A stretch of DNA of 20,209 nucleotides. It comes from a virus. Its lineage: Duplodnaviria > Heunggongvirae > Uroviricota > Caudoviricetes. The stretch lies in the IMG/VR virus record IMGVR_UViG_2681813263_000005. One strand, 5' to 3'. Of the stretch, positions 4,354-20,209 are shown in pieces. A program made the position numbers and the translations under genes. Position 1 is the stretch's first letter; every line of letters begins with the position of its first letter. The notes beneath the pieces were generated by a model. It was not told the origin of the DNA, searched no databases, and was given only the letters and a program-made list of their open reading frames with translations.

Positions 4354-4652
4354 ATCAGTTCCTCAGGTAACAGCCAGTAGAGCCGGTACCGGGATCCGAG
4401 CCCCCGCCAGTCAGGGTCACTATTCCCCTCCGTGTCGGTAAAAAACAGGTCCCCCTGAAACGGCAGGTATCCGTACCGGACAATCCGGTTATTATTCAGA
4501 CACAGCACGCCATACAGGCACGGTTCACCATTAACAATGATATCGATATACATCCCCGTAGTACGCTGATTCAGGCGAATGGTGCAGACCTGAGCGCCCA
4601 GTGTCACCGTAAACTGCTGGGCTTTAACGGGAGATAAAACAATTTCCAGCAT
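4350..4652 (-). CDS. Hypothetical tail/baseplate-associated protein
   Basis: 100-aa ORF, translationally coupled on both sides (1-nt and 4-nt overlaps), between the tape measure gene and baseplate genes. No recognisable motif. Confidence 0.3.
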
Positions 4653-5362
4653 CAGGTGATCCCCCTGTTCGTGGCGCTTCGTCTGTCAGCGTCTGACGGT
4701 TGTGTCACCGACGCCGTAACTGGCTGCGTTTTAACCGATGCGGCCCCTTTTGCTTTATCGTTGTCCGTGGGAGACGACTTATCCGTACTTCCCACTGACA
4801 CCTCTCCTGTATTCATTACGGTCTGAAATACCGCAGTAACCGTCAGTAAGGTCGGACCATTATTACTTCGCATTCGGTAGTCATATTTCACAAGGTCGCA
4901 GGATGTCCATGTCTTGTCCGGCGTCTCAATATCGTAGAGTCCTGCCGTGGTACGCATCCTTTCAAGCGTTTCCAGCACATTCGTCCGCGAGGTGGTGGAA
5001 AAATTTGTCAGGTTCGGGACGGATCCGGAAAAGGCCGTCCACCCCTCTACAGTGAAAGTCACATGCAGTTCCGGCGATCTCTGGATTTTATTAAAGGTGG
5101 TATAAGCCCCCTGCTCCACGGGGACGGTGGAAACAGAAGCCTCCGCGCCCACCTCAACGACAACAAAAGAATCCGGGGAGAAAGGTTTGCCACCCTTCTG
5201 ATGGGCACCTGCCGGATCATTCCGTGCGTAATAAATACCGAATGACGGTGCCAGTACACTGTTAATGAGTCCCAGGACACCGCCGCCACGAACTGCACTC
5301 AGTACGTTACTTTCACTGAGCGAAAAGTTATTCAGGGAAATATTATCGAAAGAAAAACTCAT
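4652..5362 (-). CDS. Hypothetical tail protein (post-tape-measure slot)
   Basis: 236-aa ORF whose ATG overlaps the tape measure stop (ATGA); Ser/Thr-rich C-terminus. Function by position only. Confidence 0.3.
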
Positions 5363-7380
5363 CCTGTTACCCCGCTGGAATAAACCGACACGAGCGCCGA
5401 ATTCGTGATACGCCGACGTGCGTCATCGGTAATACCCTTCACATTGTCCGACGTTGTGGTGACATTCAGTGTCCCGATATGCGTGGTTTCCGTTACGGTG
5501 GACTGCCATACAGGCGCAGGATGGCGCGACCGTATGGCCATTGCCGCACCCGGATAAGGCAGGTTCGCCAGCACCCGCGGAATATAGTTGCGGGTCTCCT
5601 CCGGAGCAGCAGCCAGTCCCTTACGCTGAACATTTCCCTCTCCCCAGTTATATGCCGCCAGAGCCTTAGCCAGATCGCCATGAAAAAAACGTATCAGGCC
5701 ACCAAGTTTTCTCGCGGCGGCATCAGCGGCTTTTTCGGGATCAAAGGCATCGTTCCCCCTCAGACCAAATTCCCTGGCCGTCTTCGGCATGAACTGAAAC
5801 AGTCCCATCGCACCAGCAGGTGAGACGGCAAACTGATTACCACGGGATTCGGTGATCGCAACGCTGCGCAGCAGTCCGGGCGGCAGGTTATATTTTTCCT
5901 CCAGTTGAGACAGTTTCGGTTGCAGCCAGCCTAACAGGGCTTCCCCGGTCTTCGTCGGTCGCTGGCGGTTTTGCATGGCATTACCGAGTTTTTCCTGCGT
6001 CGCACGCATACCCTGTAGCCAGGATTCACCGAAGGCTGCTTCCCTCCCGGTTGCCTGAGAAGCCTGAGTATCCAGCATGCCCTGCTGCCATACTGTGGGT
6101 GATTGTGCCCGGGTGATGTTGCCAGGCTTTTCTCCGGCATCCAGTTTTGTCTGATACGTCTCCATCTCTTTCTTATTGAAAAAGAAAGTCCCGTCTGAAG
6201 CCCAGAAAAAACCATGTGAATCCAGCCAGTCCTTATTTTCCCTGCCAACAATGGATGTCAGTAATCCGTCAACAACCGGGTAAAGCGCCGTTATCGCAAA
6301 AAGAAGGCCTCCGGGGCCACTGAGGGCTTTTGTCAGCCCCCGCACCCATGACGCCACTTTCAGCCCGATCAGCGTAATAATGACATTCTGCCAGCCCCCC
6401 AGTTCTCCGGCAGCCTTATTCGCCAGGGAGGCCACTGACTCAACGTCATTCAGAAATGTGGTGATAAACCTGTTCACTTCCTCCGGATGTTGCTGCATCC
6501 AGTCACCGAGTGTCTCCAGCCAGTGGCTGAGCTTCAGCGCGTACGGCATCAACGCGGTGCTAATCGTCATCCCGATGCCGGACCAGGTCTGATCGAGCTC
6601 AACAAGCTCTTTTCGTAGCTTACGGGCCAGCGCTATACGCCCCGGCGTAACCTGCGAACGGGAAGTAAATTCGTCCACATCTTTCAGCGCATGACCGGAG
6701 CCAAGAAACTGCTGTCCGGCATAACTGAAGCCCAGCGCGTTGCCGTAGGCAGTTTGTTCGGACTTTGTCAGTCGCGGAAAAATAACCGCCAGCTTGCGCA
6801 TGATGGCTTCAGTGCTGTCAGTATTTAAATCAACACTAATGCCCGCCCTGGCTGCAACCTGAAACAAATCCTGTAACACAGGATCAAAGGACCTTCCGGC
6901 TCTGAAGGCCGCTTTTGCATTTGCAAGCCGGGAAAATGCCCCAGACATTTCCCCTTCATCAACATTATTTGCCCGCGCAGCCCGTAACCATCCGTCCAGA
7001 TTTCTGGCCTTCATGCCAAAAGCATCAGATTCCACGGACAGACGGTTCAGATCACGGGCAAAACCTGTTACCAGGTTCTTCAGCCCCCCCAGCGTCAGAC
7101 TGACACCCGCAAGAGCCAGAATCTCGCTACGGATCCCTGAAAAAAAACGGGACGCCCGTTTCCCGGCATCTTCCATTCGACGGGCCGTTTTATCAGCATC
7201 TTTTCCGGTTTTTTCCAGTGATTCACTGGTTTTCTTCTGTCCCTGACTGAATGTGTCAGCGACACCTTCCATCACCGTCGTGAGCCGGTTAAGGGCAGCA
7301 TGTACTGCCTGTTCCCCGGCAGTAAAGTCCCTGTCATCAATCCCGAGGGACAGAACAAGCTCATCAAGTACCTGCGCCAT
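5359..7380 (-). CDS. Tail tape measure protein with C-terminal lytic transglycosylase (SLT) domain
   Basis: 673-aa ORF following the sheath-tube-chaperone genes. N-terminal region is rich in charged residues and Ala (helix-like composition); hydrophobic segment around residues 330-380. C-terminal block ...AITESRGNQFAVSPAGAMGLFQFMPKTA...AYNWGEGNV matches the SLT catalytic region, with the probable catalytic Glu in TES. SD AGGAG lies 8 nt upstream of the ATG. Confidence 0.8.
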   Translation of the reverse strand: MAQVLDELVLSLGIDDRDFTAGEQAVHAALNRLTTVMEGVADTFSQGQKKTSESLEKTGKDADKTARRMEDAGKRASRFFSGIRSEILALAGVSLTLGGLKNLVTGFARDLNRLSVESDAFGMKARNLDGWLRAARANNVDEGEMSGAFSRLANAKAAFRAGRSFDPVLQDLFQVAARAGISVDLNTDSTEAIMRKLAVIFPRLTKSEQTAYGNALGFSYAGQQFLGSGHALKDVDEFTSRSQVTPGRIALARKLRKELVELDQTWSGIGMTISTALMPYALKLSHWLETLGDWMQQHPEEVNRFITTFLNDVESVASLANKAAGELGGWQNVIITLIGLKVASWVRGLTKALSGPGGLLFAITALYPVVDGLLTSIVGRENKDWLDSHGFFWASDGTFFFNKKEMETYQTKLDAGEKPGNITRAQSPTVWQQGMLDTQASQATGREAAFGESWLQGMRATQEKLGNAMQNRQRPTKTGEALLGWLQPKLSQLEEKYNLPPGLLRSVAITESRGNQFAVSPAGAMGLFQFMPKTAREFGLRGNDAFDPEKAADAAARKLGGLIRFFHGDLAKALAAYNWGEGNVQRKGLAAAPEETRNYIPRVLANLPYPGAAMAIRSRHPAPVWQSTVTETTHIGTLNVTTTSDNVKGITDDARRRITNSALVSVYSSGVTG

Positions 7381-7992
7381 TTCTGTTCTCCTGTATCACC
7401 TGTTCGTTATGGGCATCCACATGAATTATTTCCAGCAGATCCCATAAGTCCTGCACACCAAGGACAGAATCCAGTTCAGCTTTTGAAGCCTTACCGGAGG
7501 AGATAACGGTCGCAATGGTACGGGGAACATTAACGTAATCCACCACCCCGAACGGTCTGTCGGGGTCGAGATAACGCGGGGGGATATCTAGCTGACGACG
7601 GTAGCGAAAAAATCCACATGCAGCTTAAAGACCTCCGCACGCAGATTAAGACGGGTAATGATTTCTTCAATATCCTCTTCAACAAGCGGTCTCCGGATGC
7701 TGCGTTTTTTCGGATCGGGAACAAACTGCACACAGTCCATCATTTCATCCATCAACGGACGCGCCTCATCAGGCGGAATTTTCGATAATGCTTTCAGCCC
7801 TTCAAGGGCAAGCGCAGCCATCCCCAGACTACGAACATCATCCGGTAACTCCACGCCACCACGCCCCATTGCCATAATGGCACGCATCGCCCACCATTCC
7901 GCCTGTGAGGCAGACATTTCGGTAAGATGAAATACCTTGCCCTTATCCCGTCCCTGACCTTCAATAGTGATAAATTTCTCTTTACGGGCCAT
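7364..7992 (-). CDS. Tail assembly chaperone, predicted -1 frameshift fusion product
   Basis: Hand translation: the -1 frame is open from the slippery site T_TTT_TTC (7612..7606) through the in-frame stop down to a stop at 7364, adding about 82 aa (FRYRRQLDIPPRYLDPDRPFGVVDYVNVPRT...). Same arrangement as lambda G/GT and P2 E/E'. Confidence 0.45.
7588..7992 (-). CDS. Tail assembly chaperone (short, in-frame product)
   Basis: 134-aa ORF between the tail tube and tape measure genes. Ends ...HVDFFATVVS with TAG at 7590..7588. Contains a slippery heptamer near its 3' end. Confidence 0.6.
   Translation of the reverse strand: MARKEKFITIEGQGRDKGKVFHLTEMSASQAEWWAMRAIMAMGRGGVELPDDVRSLGMAALALEGLKALSKIPPDEARPLMDEMMDCVQFVPDPKKRSIRRPLVEEDIEEIITRLNLRAEVFKLHVDFFATVVS
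7606..7612 (-). promoter_or_regulatory. Candidate -1 programmed ribosomal frameshift slippery heptamer (U UUU UUC)
   Basis: Minus-strand sequence GAT TTT TTC encodes D-F-F of the chaperone; the heptamer fits the X_XXY_YYZ rule and the -1 frame continues open past the zero-frame stop. Confidence 0.45.
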
Positions 7993-13697: not shown

Positions 13698-15047
13698 TCA
13701 GTAACCTCGTTTCAGTTTTGCACCGGGGAAATCTGCCGCAAACGTCGATGCGCTGGCCTGATCCATCGCCACACGGGGAGAGGATTTGGCCGTCTGCTTC
13801 TGCTCAACGGCAAACTTCACCATGCTGCGGTACGCACCGGGGTGAATACCCTGGATATCGATCCCCGTCTGTTCCAGCGCGGTACGGTAAACATCTTCGG
13901 CGCAGTCCATCGCCACCACATCGCCAATCAGCGGTCGCACTTCAGCTTCAGCCACACGGACGGCGCGGAAATTTTCAGCAGCCCGTTTCGTTGCCTGGTC
14001 AGTTGCCAGCCTGATTGCTGCATCCATCGCAGGTTTATCGACTTTCACATCGTCGGGTTTCACATCAGCCTCTTTTGTTTCGGGGGCTTCGTCGGTTGTC
14101 GGAGACAGTGCGGATTTAATTTTTTCCAGCACATCATCAGGAACTTTGCCGGACAGCAACGCCAGTACACTTTCCATCGGGCTGTCGGTATCAAATGCCT
14201 TCGACTCGTCAGTTAACCCGGTATCATCATCCCCGACCAGCTCCGGTACGGCTTCTGCTGATTCCATCAGTTGCGCCAGCTCCGCCGGTTCAATATCCAT
14301 ATCCTGTGCCAGCCGTTCGCTGTAAGCAGTTTTTACCGCGCTGGCGATAGCTGCCGGACGCTTATACTGCGCCATCAGGCGTAACAAATCCCCGGGAGCC
14401 GCATCCTGCGCCAGACGCGGCGCAAGATAGGTTCCCAGCGCGGTAAGCACCGCCACTTCTTTTTTACTCAGTTTCATGCGTTTTAGCTCCTGAGGGAGAG
14501 AGTCCATAACAAGACAGTCCGACCCTACCCGGCCATCGCCGACCAGGGCCACATGATTTCCCACGATATTCCGCATAACGCCGTCATACGGCTCACCGTC
14601 GGGGGTGGTTCCCGGCGTCATATCTGCCACATAGGCATATGACGATGAGATTTCCCGTTGTTCATCCGTTTCTATCCCCGCGATGGCGGAGTTGTCCCAG
14701 ATGGACATGCCGTTAACCAGATAGGTACCGTCAAACTCGCTGTTGGCATGAGTCGTCCCCACCCGGTACTCGCGCGCGGGCGCGCCCGGATAATCGGGTT
14801 TGTGTCGGCACAGGACGGGAATATTGTTGAAGGTTGAAACTGCCTTGCGCAGTTCATCGGGGTCACGGTAAAGCTGATAAAGTTTTTTGGGGTCGAGTCC
14901 CAGCGCTTCCGCCCCCGGTATTTCATACCCGAAATAACCGCAGACGTTCGCCTTGCTGAGATTACTGCGCTCAATCTGGAGGCGACCGACTTTATCGAAC
15001 TGCCTTACCGATGCCCGGTCAAACGCCAGCATTTCGGTAATAATCAT
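13698..15047 (-). CDS. Head scaffolding / prohead protease-like protein (DUF2213-like)
   Basis: Track ORF is 13698..15119, but I prefer the internal ATG at 15047 (MIITEML...), which forms an ATGA overlap with the stop of the upstream head morphogenesis gene. Acidic, Ala/Glu-rich C-terminal half typical of scaffolds. Lies between the MuF-like and capsid genes. Confidence 0.5.
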
Positions 15048-15865
15048 TTTTTCTCCAGTCCGGGAATAACGGCCTCCCAGCCACACCGGCAGTTGATTTC
15101 TTCGCCCGGCAGTACCCACTTACCATCCAGAAACATCCCCTTTCGCAGGTCAAACCGTTTACCGTTCGCCTTCACATGCGACGGACGCCATGTTTTACCC
15201 GCGCGGGAATGCCGCCAGACACCTTCAGTGATACCCACCGAACGCTGTCTGGCGGCCTGCATTACCGACGTTGCCTTATTGTTCTGGTCGCGGGCAATCA
15301 GCGCCGCGCGCCGTCGTGTGATGCCGTAACGTTTTTCCAGTTCATCGGTCAGCGTTTTCAGGTCACGTCCCCGGCCAACAGACTGCATGACCAGTGTTTC
15401 CACCTGGGTGAGATGTTGCTGCGGGATGGAGCGAATGAGGTTCACATTCTCCGTGATGCTGGCCTGAAGTGCGGTATTCATCTCCGTTGTCATACGGAAA
15501 GGAACCGTAAACCCGGCATCACGGAGCGCAGTGTACAGTGACGCATCGCTGTTTTTCAGGACATCACCGGCAAACCGCCTCGCCAGCCGCAGGGCCATTT
15601 CGTCAAAATTTTTCTGCCAGCGCCTGGCAAGTTGCTGCATGGCACCACGCATCAGGTTAACGGGGGACGCATCCTGCGCGAGGTCTGTTTTACGGTACTC
15701 AGCCCGCAGCCAGTAAAGTACACTGTTGTGCATCCCACTGACGGCATTATCCAGTTGTCTGCGGTACCAGGCCTCAATCCCCGCGTTGGGTGAAATCCGC
15801 CTCAGGGTCTGCATTCGGGCCTTGCGGCGGATTTTCTTCGGTGTTGTCAATTTCAGTGTCGTCAA
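15044..15865 (-). CDS. Head morphogenesis protein (Mu F-like / SPP1 gp7 family)
   Basis: 273-aa ORF directly after the portal gene. Basic N-terminus; sequence recollected as similar to MuF-type minor head proteins. Start uncertain: 15865 gives a 92-nt overlap with the portal gene, and an internal Met (15814) is an alternative. Confidence 0.65.
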
Positions 15866-19540: not shown

Positions 19541-19655
19541 GTGTAGGGTATAAGCCATTATCAAGCCCACCAGTAGATGGACTTTGTAATGGATAGCTGT
19601 TGCTCAGTTCTCGTAATGCTTTGATTTTTCCGATAACGCAGTTTTGCGTTTGCCA

Positions 19656-20177
19656 TCAGCACGCGATATCGAGAGTCAACTGCAGTTGCTCGCGCCAGTA
19701 CTCGACATTTGCTTCAATAACCGGCTTATCCCATCGCCAGCGAGCCATCTCTCTTGCCCCATTGCTGGCTTTTGATTTCCGGTCATCGCGAATGCGACAT
19801 GCTTGCTCATATTTCTGCTGCTCAGTCAGTTCACCGCGAAGCAGACTATCAATGTGCAGGTCGCACCATACGGAGAATTTCGGATCGCACCATCTTGCAA
19901 AGGCAACTGATAACTTTGGATGCTGCCATGTTCCGCCGCCCCTGTCCTTTCGTGCCTTGCTTGTTTTTACATACCCGGAATCACGGGTATGTAGAATTTT
20001 CGATGGTTCACCTGAATAAACCTCATCCAGAGCTCTAACGTATTCGAGAGTTTCAGCGTTGGACAACCAGTGATCCAGACGCTTCCCGAAACGTTTTGCA
20101 ATATCAGTGGCATTAATCCAGCCATCAGTATTGAAGCGGATAGGTTCGCCTTTGTAATTCAGTGGAACGATATTCAT
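19656..20177 (-). CDS. KilA-N domain-containing protein
   Basis: 173-aa ORF; the N-terminal ~100 aa (FNTDGWINATDIAKRFGKRLDHWL...YVRALDEV...HPKLSVAFARWCDPKFSVW) matches the KilA-N DNA-binding domain pattern. SD-like AAGG about 9 nt upstream of the ATG. Confidence 0.65.
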   Translation of the reverse strand: MNIVPLNYKGEPIRFNTDGWINATDIAKRFGKRLDHWLSNAETLEYVRALDEVYSGEPSKILHTRDSGYVKTSKARKDRGGGTWQHPKLSVAFARWCDPKFSVWCDLHIDSLLRGELTEQQKYEQACRIRDDRKSKASNGAREMARWRWDKPVIEANVEYWREQLQLTLDIAC

Positions 20178-20209
20178 AGCGTCTTACCTTTTAGAAAGAT
20201 GAGCCTGTT

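What the first reader, a model, noticed from the sequence alone, without database searches (positions are those of the whole stretch)
5551..5898. Tape measure protein carries a C-terminal lytic transglycosylase (SLT) domain
Residues ~495-610 of the 673-aa tape measure protein contain the SLT signature block AITESRGNQFAVSPAGAMGLFQFMP...AYNWGEGNV, with the probable catalytic Glu in TES encoded at about 5848..5850. A virion-borne peptidoglycan hydrolase fused to the tape measure protein is a known but not universal feature, used for cell-wall penetration during DNA injection, and is a candidate ejected enzyme independent of any lysis cassette. A hydrophobic stretch (residues ~330-380, about 6247..6396) precedes it.
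Basis: partly seen in the sequence, partly recalled or inferred. Interest (0 to 1): 0.45.

Follow-up and report, generated by a model that had tools for sequence, protein, structure and literature searches.

The report
Prophage tape measure with transglycosylase domain
The tail-length ruler protein of an E. coli prophage carries a cell-wall-cutting domain, probably used to open the wall during DNA injection; this is real, but it is ordinary and already annotated in public databases.

Summary
ORF 5359..7380 (- strand, 673 aa) has a Pfam SLT domain at aa 493-598 (E=7.7e-26). A predicted structure of aa 465-673 matches solved family-1 lytic transglycosylases (Slt, MltD, T7 gp16, MltE).

The tape-measure call also holds:
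- The gene follows a tail chaperone with a conserved -1 frameshift site (T_TTT_TTC, 7606..7612).
- It precedes Dit-like, plug, hub and spike baseplate genes.
- It matches tape-measure PHROGs.
- Its N-terminal part (aa 1-349) matches the gene called the tape measure in Burkholderia phage PhiE067.

One refinement: the domain is not terminal. A conserved 63-aa tail follows it. That tail persists in relatives whose enzyme domain differs (SLT, Phage_lysozyme2, glucosaminidase, GH24 or GH19).

A near-identical prophage copy has a separate holin/lysozyme/spanin cassette, so the SLT is a virion enzyme candidate, not the endolysin.

The protein is 100% identical to a RefSeq entry named "lytic transglycosylase domain-containing protein" and matches PHROG 2013 "lytic tail protein" over its full length. 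The related-architecture myovirus Pa193 has the same arrangement. Enzyme activity and a role in infection are inferred, not shown. The finding is already known and of low interest.

The parts
5359..7380 (-). Tape measure protein gene, 673 aa plus stop. It has an AGGAG Shine-Dalgarno 8 nt upstream of the ATG at 7380. Its TGA overlaps the ATG of the next gene (ATGA).
   Evidence: PHROG 2013 'lytic tail protein' matches full length at E=2.4e-246, and tape-measure PHROGs 2276, 9570 and 8125 also match. It is 100% identical to a RefSeq protein.
5587..5902 (-). SLT (family-1 lytic transglycosylase) domain, aa 493-598.
   Evidence: Pfam PF01464 E=7.7e-26. AF2 pLDDT is 85-93 over this part. Foldseek hits to Slt, MltD (rmsd 2.5 A over 144 columns), T7 gp16 and MltE.
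5848..5850 (-). Codon GAA for Glu511, the predicted catalytic acid in the TES motif.
   Evidence: aligned with Glu37 of the WTES motif of T7 gp16. Invariant in 22 homologs.
5362..5550 (-). Conserved C-terminal tail, aa 611-673. Proposed anchor to the tail tip or hub.
   Evidence: Conserved in A1. The last ~45 aa are kept in counterparts whose enzyme domain differs or is absent. The analogy is Pa193 gp41 residues 840-858, which bind the tail tip. The function is inferred.
6244..6387 (-). Hydrophobic pair of predicted helices, aa 332-379, preceded by the invariant GGW motif (aa 328-330).
   Evidence: Hydropathy. GGW.N is conserved in distant relatives. Predicted helices 330-352 and 358-378 come from a low-confidence model.
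5971..6345 (-). Hypervariable linker, aa ~346-470, full of indels between homologs. It overlaps the second half of the hydrophobic region.
   Evidence: Alignment A1 columns ~400-600. pLDDT below 50.
6331..7380 (-). Conserved N-terminal ruler region, aa 1-350. It includes a confidently predicted helical bundle at aa ~110-250.
   Evidence: 752 representative clusters match aa 1-470 at E<=0.001, mostly over aa ~1-360.
7588..7992 (-). Tail assembly chaperone, short product of 134 aa.
   Evidence: PHROG 1932 'tail assembly chaperone' E=3.2e-59.
7606..7612 (-). Slippery heptamer T_TTT_TTC, in register for a -1 programmed frameshift.
   Evidence: The same heptamer sits at the same codon in Pantoea phage PA-1, and G_GGT_TTT sits at the equivalent place in PhiE067.
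7364..7606 (-). The -1 frame extension (80 aa) of the chaperone, giving a ~209-aa long product that ends 17 nt inside the tape measure gene.
   Evidence: The extension is homologous in PA-1 and PhiE067. RefSeq annotates its distal part as a separate 60-aa hypothetical protein.
4652..5362 (-). Dit-like baseplate protein, translationally coupled to the tape measure gene.
   Evidence: Pfam Dit_like. ATGA overlap.

Best explanation
The 673-aa protein is the tape measure protein of a contractile-tailed E. coli prophage. It has four parts:
- a conserved helical ruler (aa 1-350);
- a hydrophobic helix pair and variable linker (aa 330-470);
- a family-1 lytic transglycosylase domain (aa 493-598, catalytic Glu511);
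- a conserved 63-aa tail.

Inferred mechanism: the protein is assembled inside the tail tube with help from the frameshifted chaperone pair, and its C-terminal tail is held at the hub or spike end. After sheath contraction drives the spike through the outer membrane, the tip-proximal C-terminal part leaves first. The SLT domain then cuts the glycan strands locally (MurNAc-GlcNAc bond, giving a 1,6-anhydroMurNAc product). The hydrophobic segment may then help to form the passage through the inner membrane.

The sequence features, fold and gene context are shown. Virion location, order of exit, enzyme activity and any membrane role are inferred from T7 gp16, T5 Pb2, TM4 and Pa193.
For: - SLT profile hit E=7.7e-26.
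- Glu511 aligns with Glu37 in the TES motif of T7 gp16, the ejected core transglycosylase.
- E511-S512, G526/Q529, A576-Y577-N578-G580 and Y599 are invariant in 22 homologs of 51-91% identity.
- The AF2 model of aa 465-673 has pLDDT 85-93 in the domain. Foldseek places it with Slt, MltD, LtgA, T7 gp16, MltE, MltC and cod g-type lysozyme.
- Gene order is sheath (DUF3383), tube (E217_Gp32), chaperone, this gene, Dit-like, Pam3_gp18 plug, E217_GP41 hub, spike with gpV apex, then wedge genes.
- A conserved -1 frameshift lies in the chaperone immediately upstream. The same site is published for PhiE067, where the counterpart gene, homologous over the N-terminal ~350 aa, is called the tape measure.
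- Tape-measure PHROGs match aa 1-606.
- 14 of 132 relatives found with the N-terminal part alone carry Pfam PhageMin_Tail.
- No other tail protein in the window has a muralytic domain.
- A separate holin/RrrD/lysis-protein cassette exists in a near-identical prophage copy.
- Pa193 gp41, a tape measure of a myovirus with related tube and hub families, has a putative transglycosylase at aa 491-582. Its C-terminus is seen bound to the tail tip by cryo-EM.
Against: - No experiment on this protein or any close homolog was found.
- The window protein itself does not reach Pfam PhageMin_Tail, and no NCBIfam tape-measure model matches it.
- The full-length model is of low confidence (mean pLDDT 54), so the helical ruler is weakly supported structurally.
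- Several E. coli copies of this prophage are decayed. The sheath gene is IS-disrupted in one genome and the tape measure gene is frameshifted in another. The element may therefore not always be a working phage.
- Arg513 replaces the Gly found in at least 90% of homologs next to the catalytic pair. The effect is unknown.
Confidence: 0.85

Rival explanations
1. The protein is a separate 'lytic tail protein' or baseplate lysin and not the length ruler. The real tape measure is another gene, or this tail has none.
For: RefSeq and PHROG 2013 name it only by its lytic domain. There is no direct Pfam or NCBIfam tape-measure hit for the window protein.
Against: - There is no other long ORF between the tube and the baseplate genes.
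- It sits directly after the frameshifted chaperone pair.
- Tape-measure PHROGs 2276, 9570 and 8125 match its N-terminal 460-600 aa.
- Relatives carry PhageMin_Tail.
- The PhiE067 counterpart is published as the tape measure. Its 622 aa fit a 102-nm tail at about 1.6 A per residue.
Confidence: 0.05
2. The SLT domain is a structural remnant without catalytic function, for example a plug or spacer in the tube.
For: No activity data exist. Arg513 is unusual next to Glu511-Ser512. At least one counterpart (Pantoea PA-1) has no recognisable enzyme domain, so a lysin is not obligatory for this tail type.
Against: All family-1 catalytic and substrate-binding motifs are invariant across homologs down to 51% identity, while the neighbouring linker is free to vary. 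Relatives have replaced the domain with other muralytic families rather than with unrelated folds, which argues for selection on wall cleavage.
Confidence: 0.07
3. The domain acts as the endolysin at the end of infection, from within, and not at entry.
For: PHROG 669 'endolysin' matches the domain. No lysis genes lie inside the 20-kb window.
Against: A near-identical prophage copy has a complete class II holin, RrrD lysozyme and lysis-protein cassette just upstream of the terminase genes. The gene is embedded in and translationally coupled to tail genes. No signal sequence or holin partner lies adjacent.
Confidence: 0.03

Closest known systems
Pseudomonas phage Pa193 (Pbunavirus) gp41 tape measure protein (PDB 9B45; PMC11456595)
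   Same: It is a tape measure of a contractile tail with an internal putative transglycosylase domain at almost the same distance from the N-terminus (aa 491-582 there, 493-598 here). The C-terminus beyond the domain anchors to the tail tip. Tube and hub proteins of the window match Pfam families built on E217, another Pbunavirus whose structure has been solved.
   Different: Detectable sequence similarity is limited to the SLT region (E=7.9e-10). Pa193 has about 275 aa after the domain, against 75 here. Pa193 is a virulent Pseudomonas phage, while this is a temperate E. coli prophage with a lambdoid lysis cassette.
Phage T7 gp16 N-terminal lytic transglycosylase (PDB 7EYB, 9JYY)
   Same: It is the best PDB sequence match to the domain (E=7.8e-13). 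The TES motif is aligned residue for residue. It is an ejected virion protein that acts on peptidoglycan at entry.
   Different: gp16 is a head-internal core protein of a podovirus and not a tail ruler. Its domain is N-terminal in a 1318-aa protein.
Burkholderia phage PhiE067 (PE067) ORF17 tape measure protein (PMC7266877)
   Same: The N-terminal ruler is homologous (aa 1-349, E=7e-18). The gene order is the same, the frameshifted chaperone is the same, and the last ~45 aa are conserved.
   Different: It carries Pfam Phage_lysozyme2 (PF18013) at aa 404-531 in place of SLT.
[quoted passage not shown]
   Same: A ruler protein carries a peptidoglycan-cleaving domain used at entry. T5 Pb2 also carries fusogenic activity according to its paper's title; hydrophobic segments in T5 Pb2 are from my own knowledge.
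   Different: These have non-contractile tails, different enzyme families (peptidase or Rpf-like motifs) and no sequence relationship outside the general architecture.
Bacterial family-1 lytic transglycosylases (Slt70/Slt, MltD, MltE, MltC)
   Same: The fold and catalytic motifs are shared. MltD gives 33% identity and rmsd 2.5 A over 144 columns.
   Different: They are housekeeping periplasmic or outer-membrane-anchored enzymes with signal peptides and LysM or superhelical accessory domains, none of which is present here. All NCBIfam equivalog scores are far below their cut-offs.

Membership tests
Pfam SLT (PF01464) / family-1 lytic transglycosylases | Profile match above the curated gathering score | tested here: met
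   90.4 bits against a cut-off of 21.3, E=7.7e-26, aa 493-598.
Pfam SLT (PF01464) / family-1 lytic transglycosylases | Catalytic Glu followed by Ser (motif I) | tested here: met
   E511-S512 align with the TES motif (E37-S38) of T7 gp16 and are invariant in 22 homologs. That Glu37 is the catalytic residue of gp16 is from my own knowledge of Moak & Molineux 2000, cited in PMC6116005.
Pfam SLT (PF01464) / family-1 lytic transglycosylases | Motifs II (GLMQ-like), III (AYNxG) and IV (downstream Tyr). The motif definitions are from my own knowledge of the Blackburn and Clarke classification. | tested here: met
   GLFQF 526-530, AYNWG 576-580 and Y599 are present. G526, Q529, A576, Y577, N578, G580 and Y599 are invariant.
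Pfam SLT (PF01464) / family-1 lytic transglycosylases | Goose-type-lysozyme-like alpha-helical fold | tested here: met
   The AF2 model has pLDDT 85-93 in the domain. 40 PDB matches at E<=0.001 are almost all lytic transglycosylases; cod g-type lysozyme 3gxk follows at E=1.4e-3.
Pfam SLT (PF01464) / family-1 lytic transglycosylases | Non-hydrolytic cleavage of MurNAc-GlcNAc giving 1,6-anhydroMurNAc | not testable with these tools
   This requires an enzyme assay and muropeptide analysis.
Phage tail tape measure protein | Gene lies directly downstream of a tail chaperone pair made by a -1 programmed frameshift and upstream of the distal-tail or baseplate genes | tested here: met
   T_TTT_TTC is in register at 7606..7612, with an 80-aa -1 extension. 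The site and the extension are conserved in PA-1 and PhiE067. Dit-like, plug, hub and spike genes lie downstream.
Phage tail tape measure protein | Profile similarity to recognised tape measure families | tested here: met
   PHROG 2276 E=9e-30 (aa 1-606), PHROG 9570 E=4.8e-20 (aa 1-463) and PHROG 8125 E=1.1e-11. Pfam PhageMin_Tail is found in 14 of 132 relatives but not in this protein itself.
Phage tail tape measure protein | Long, mostly alpha-helical protein | tested here: inconclusive
   DSSP on the model gives helices through nearly all of aa 1-470. However, pLDDT is below 50 outside aa 110-250.
Phage tail tape measure protein | Protein length sets tail length, and the protein is present in the tube lumen | not testable with these tools
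   The only indirect calibration is PhiE067, with 622 aa and a 102 +/- 3 nm tail.
PHROG 2013 'lytic tail protein' | Full-length profile match | tested here: met
   E=2.4e-246, aa 1-672 on profile positions 1-656 of 657.
Endolysin of a holin-endolysin-spanin lysis cassette | Encoded next to holin and spanin genes | tested here: not met
   The gene is embedded in the tail module. The lysis cassette of a near-identical prophage copy lies beyond the terminase genes and has its own RrrD lysozyme.

The most novel reading that the evidence does not exclude
In this contractile-tail lineage the tape measure may be the only virion lysin and a true ejection protein. It would have a fixed 'slot' between a conserved ruler and a conserved ~45-aa tip anchor. 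Different muralytic cassettes (SLT, Phage_lysozyme2, glucosaminidase, GH24, GH19) are exchanged in that slot to suit host wall chemistry. After exit, the invariant GGW plus hydrophobic helix pair (aa 328-379) would build the inner-membrane conduit. This would extend the siphovirus tape-measure channel model to myoviruses, as hypothesised but not shown for Pa193.
Probability: 0.3. Interest if true: 0.4.

Novelty: already known. Interest (0 to 1): 0.12.

Why it matters
It matters little as a discovery. It does let the annotation of this prophage be completed. The 'lytic transglycosylase domain-containing protein' is the tape measure. The adjacent 60-aa 'hypothetical protein' in RefSeq is the frameshifted end of the tail chaperone. 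Practically, virion-associated lysins are candidate enzybiotics. The survey here shows that this tape-measure family exchanges at least five muralytic domain types at one position, which is a convenient natural scaffold for domain-swap engineering.

Tried and rejected
- Megablast of the gene against 50,697 phage records found nothing. Relatives there are seen only at protein level, at 35% identity or less over the full length.
- NCBIfam gave only sub-threshold hits to bacterial transglycosylase equivalogs and no tape-measure model.
- The full-length AF2 model was poor (mean pLDDT 54). Its BFVD search returned tape measure and lytic tail proteins, but with TM-scores of 0.15-0.3 and rmsd above 20 A, so I use it only as a weak pointer.
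- The last 65 aa have no sequence match in the PDB even at E<=10. The proposed tip-anchor role therefore rests on conservation and on analogy with Pa193.
- I considered that the SLT domain might be the phage's endolysin, a dead domain, or part of a non-ruler baseplate protein. The reasons for rejecting each are under the rival explanations.
- I did not compute how many relatives carry two muralytic families at once, so the per-family counts may overlap.

Full report
**What is in the sequence**

The window is a tightly packed block of genes, all on the minus strand. In order, it holds:
- KilA-N and the small terminase subunit;
- a 539-aa ORF at the large-terminase position (no Pfam hit; RefSeq calls its counterpart TerL in related genomes);
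- portal, a Mu-F-like head protein and a DUF2213 protease/scaffold;
- cement protein, major capsid, neck proteins, DUF3383 sheath, tube, tail chaperone;
- the ORF in question, followed by a Dit-like protein, plug, hub, spike and wedge genes.

The ORF runs 5359..7380 and encodes 673 aa.
- aa 495-610 equal 5551..5898.
- AITESRGNQFAVSPAGAMGLFQFMP is aa 508-532.
- AYNWGEGNV is aa 576-584.
- The TES glutamate is Glu511, GAA at 5848..5850.
- The hydrophobic stretch is aa 332-379 (6244..6387), and another lies at aa 79-106.

The start codon is well supported. AGGAG lies 8 nt upstream, and the N-terminus is conserved from residue 1 in homologs. The stop overlaps the start of the next gene as ATGA.

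**Is it an SLT domain?**

Yes.
- Pfam SLT matches aa 493-598 at E=7.7e-26, 90 bits against a cut-off of 21.
- The best sequence match among solved structures is the N-terminal transglycosylase of T7 gp16 (E=7.8e-13). Glu511 falls on Glu37 of the gp16 TES motif. That Glu37 is the catalytic residue is from my own knowledge of Moak and Molineux 2000, which is cited in PMC6116005.
- In 22 homologs of 51-91% identity, E511, S512, G526, Q529, A576, Y577, N578, G580 and Y599 are invariant. These are the four family-1 motifs.
- An AlphaFold2 model of aa 465-673 has pLDDT 85-93 across the domain.
- Foldseek against the PDB returns P. aeruginosa Slt, MltD (33% identity, rmsd 2.5 A over 144 columns), LtgA, T7 gp16, MltE, MltC, MltF, Slt70 and a cod g-type lysozyme.

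**Is it the tape measure?**

The evidence is contextual but consistent.
- It is the only long gene between the tube/chaperone genes and the baseplate genes.
- PHROG tape-measure families 2276, 9570 and 8125 match its N-terminal 460-600 residues. PHROG 2013 'lytic tail protein' matches end to end at E=2.4e-246.
- The 134-aa chaperone ORF immediately upstream contains T_TTT_TTC in the correct register at 7606..7612. The -1 frame stays open for 80 codons, ending 17 nt inside the tape measure gene.
- The same heptamer at the same codon, and a homologous extension, occur in Pantoea phage PA-1. G_GGT_TTT occurs at the equivalent site in Burkholderia phage PhiE067.
- The PhiE067 authors describe that frameshift and call the downstream gene, ORF17, the tape measure. 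ORF17 matches aa 1-349 of this protein (E=7e-18). PhiE067 has a 102 +/- 3 nm contractile tail and a 622-aa ORF17, about 1.6 A per residue.
- A search of 1.84 billion representatives with aa 1-470 alone found 752 related clusters, mostly 500-750 aa long. 14 of the 132 long relatives scanned carry Pfam PhageMin_Tail.

**Architecture**

The family alignment shows five regions:
- a conserved ruler, aa 1-350;
- an invariant GGW followed by a hydrophobic helix pair;
- a hypervariable, indel-rich linker running to about aa 470;
- the conserved SLT domain;
- a conserved 63-aa tail.

The domain is therefore sub-terminal, not terminal. In more distant counterparts the last ~45 aa persist while the enzyme module changes. 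PhiE067 has Phage_lysozyme2 (PF18013), and PA-1 has no recognisable domain. Among the 132 relatives the counts are SLT 42, Phage_lysozyme2 47, glucosaminidase 6, T4-type lysozyme 1 and GH19 1. These counts may overlap on single proteins.

No other tail protein in the window has a muralytic domain.

**How it probably works**

This section is inference from named precedents. In the myovirus Pa193, the tape measure gp41 has a putative transglycosylase at aa 491-582. Its last 19 residues are seen by cryo-EM bound to the tail tip. The window's tube and hub match Pfam families built on E217, another Pbunavirus whose structure has been solved.

By analogy, the conserved tail of this protein sits at the hub or spike. 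After contraction it leaves first, the SLT domain cuts peptidoglycan locally, and the hydrophobic segment may contribute to inner-membrane passage. The last step follows what is proposed for T5 Pb2, HK97 and lambda gpH. None of these steps is shown for this protein.

**Not the endolysin**

A near-identical (99.6%) copy of this module in E. coli CFSAN029787 has a class II holin, RrrD lysozyme and a lysis protein just beyond the terminase genes.

**What is known already**

- The protein is 100% identical over its full length to a RefSeq protein named 'lytic transglycosylase domain-containing protein'.
- A truncated copy is named 'putative phage tail tape measure protein' by one source (P0042).
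- The gene is present at 99% identity or more in 9 of 5,426 complete E. coli genomes.
- Homologs are common in Salmonella and Serratia prophages.
- Tape measures with lytic domains are textbook virion-associated lysins and have been noted for myoviruses.

The finding is therefore correct but not new.

**Verdict**

The novelty class is 'already known' and interest is low (0.12). The useful by-products are three:
- the frameshift annotation;
- the sub-terminal placement of the domain, followed by a conserved tail;
- the survey showing cassette-like exchange of muralytic domains in this tape-measure family.

Noticed in passing
window 7364..7992 (- strand); heptamer at 7606..7612: The tail chaperone has a conserved -1 programmed frameshift (T_TTT_TTC) giving a ~209-aa long form. 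RefSeq annotates the distal part as a separate 60-aa 'hypothetical protein' (WP_000228829.1) and does not mark the frameshift.
   Followed up: yes
window ~7170..7200 (aa 60-70 of the tape measure); alignment A1 columns 64-113: Salmonella homologs (about 720 aa) carry two or three extra ~25-aa repeats of the type KTG.DADK.A..ME.AGKR that are absent here. This ~50-aa difference in the ruler would predict a tail about 7-8 nm shorter if length scales as usual.
   Followed up: partly
window 5971..6345 (aa ~346-470): The linker between the hydrophobic segment and the SLT domain is hypervariable and full of indels, even between homologs that are over 90% identical in the flanking domains. This suggests recombination or relaxed constraint at the domain junction.
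   Followed up: partly
window 6631..7050 (aa ~110-250): A compact helical bundle is predicted with pLDDT 80-91 inside the otherwise low-confidence ruler. It is the best conserved part across 752 related clusters. Its role is unknown; chaperone or tube binding is possible.
   Followed up: no
L003 3501..5366 (PhiE067), L004 3501..5276 (PA-1), and 132 representative relatives: Tape measures sharing the N-terminal ruler carry SLT, Phage_lysozyme2, glucosaminidase, T4-type lysozyme or GH19 domains at the same position, or no recognisable domain. All keep a similar ~45-aa C-terminal tail.
   Followed up: yes
window 19603..20209: The right end, with a KilA-N domain gene at 19656..20177, does not match the eight E. 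coli genomes that share the rest of the window at over 99%. It matches other strains at about 89% instead. In CFSAN029787 a different gene and then the lysis cassette lie at this position, so this is a mosaic junction.
   Followed up: partly
L001 23081..26155 and L002 20359..22379: Copies of this prophage in complete E. coli genomes are often decayed. IS600 and IS421 interrupt the sheath gene in an O121 strain, and the tape measure gene is frameshifted in CFSAN029787. In the O121 strain the prophage lies next to the T3SS effector gene ipaH3.
   Followed up: partly
window 5359..5362: The tape measure stop and the Dit-like gene start overlap as ATGA, which suggests translational coupling.
   Followed up: yes
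window 15044..15865 (- strand): The mechanical 273-aa TTG ORF (Mu-F-like head morphogenesis domain) overlaps the 3' end of the portal gene by about 90 nt. RefSeq calls a shorter 229-aa product in the related genome, so the true start is probably internal.
   Followed up: no
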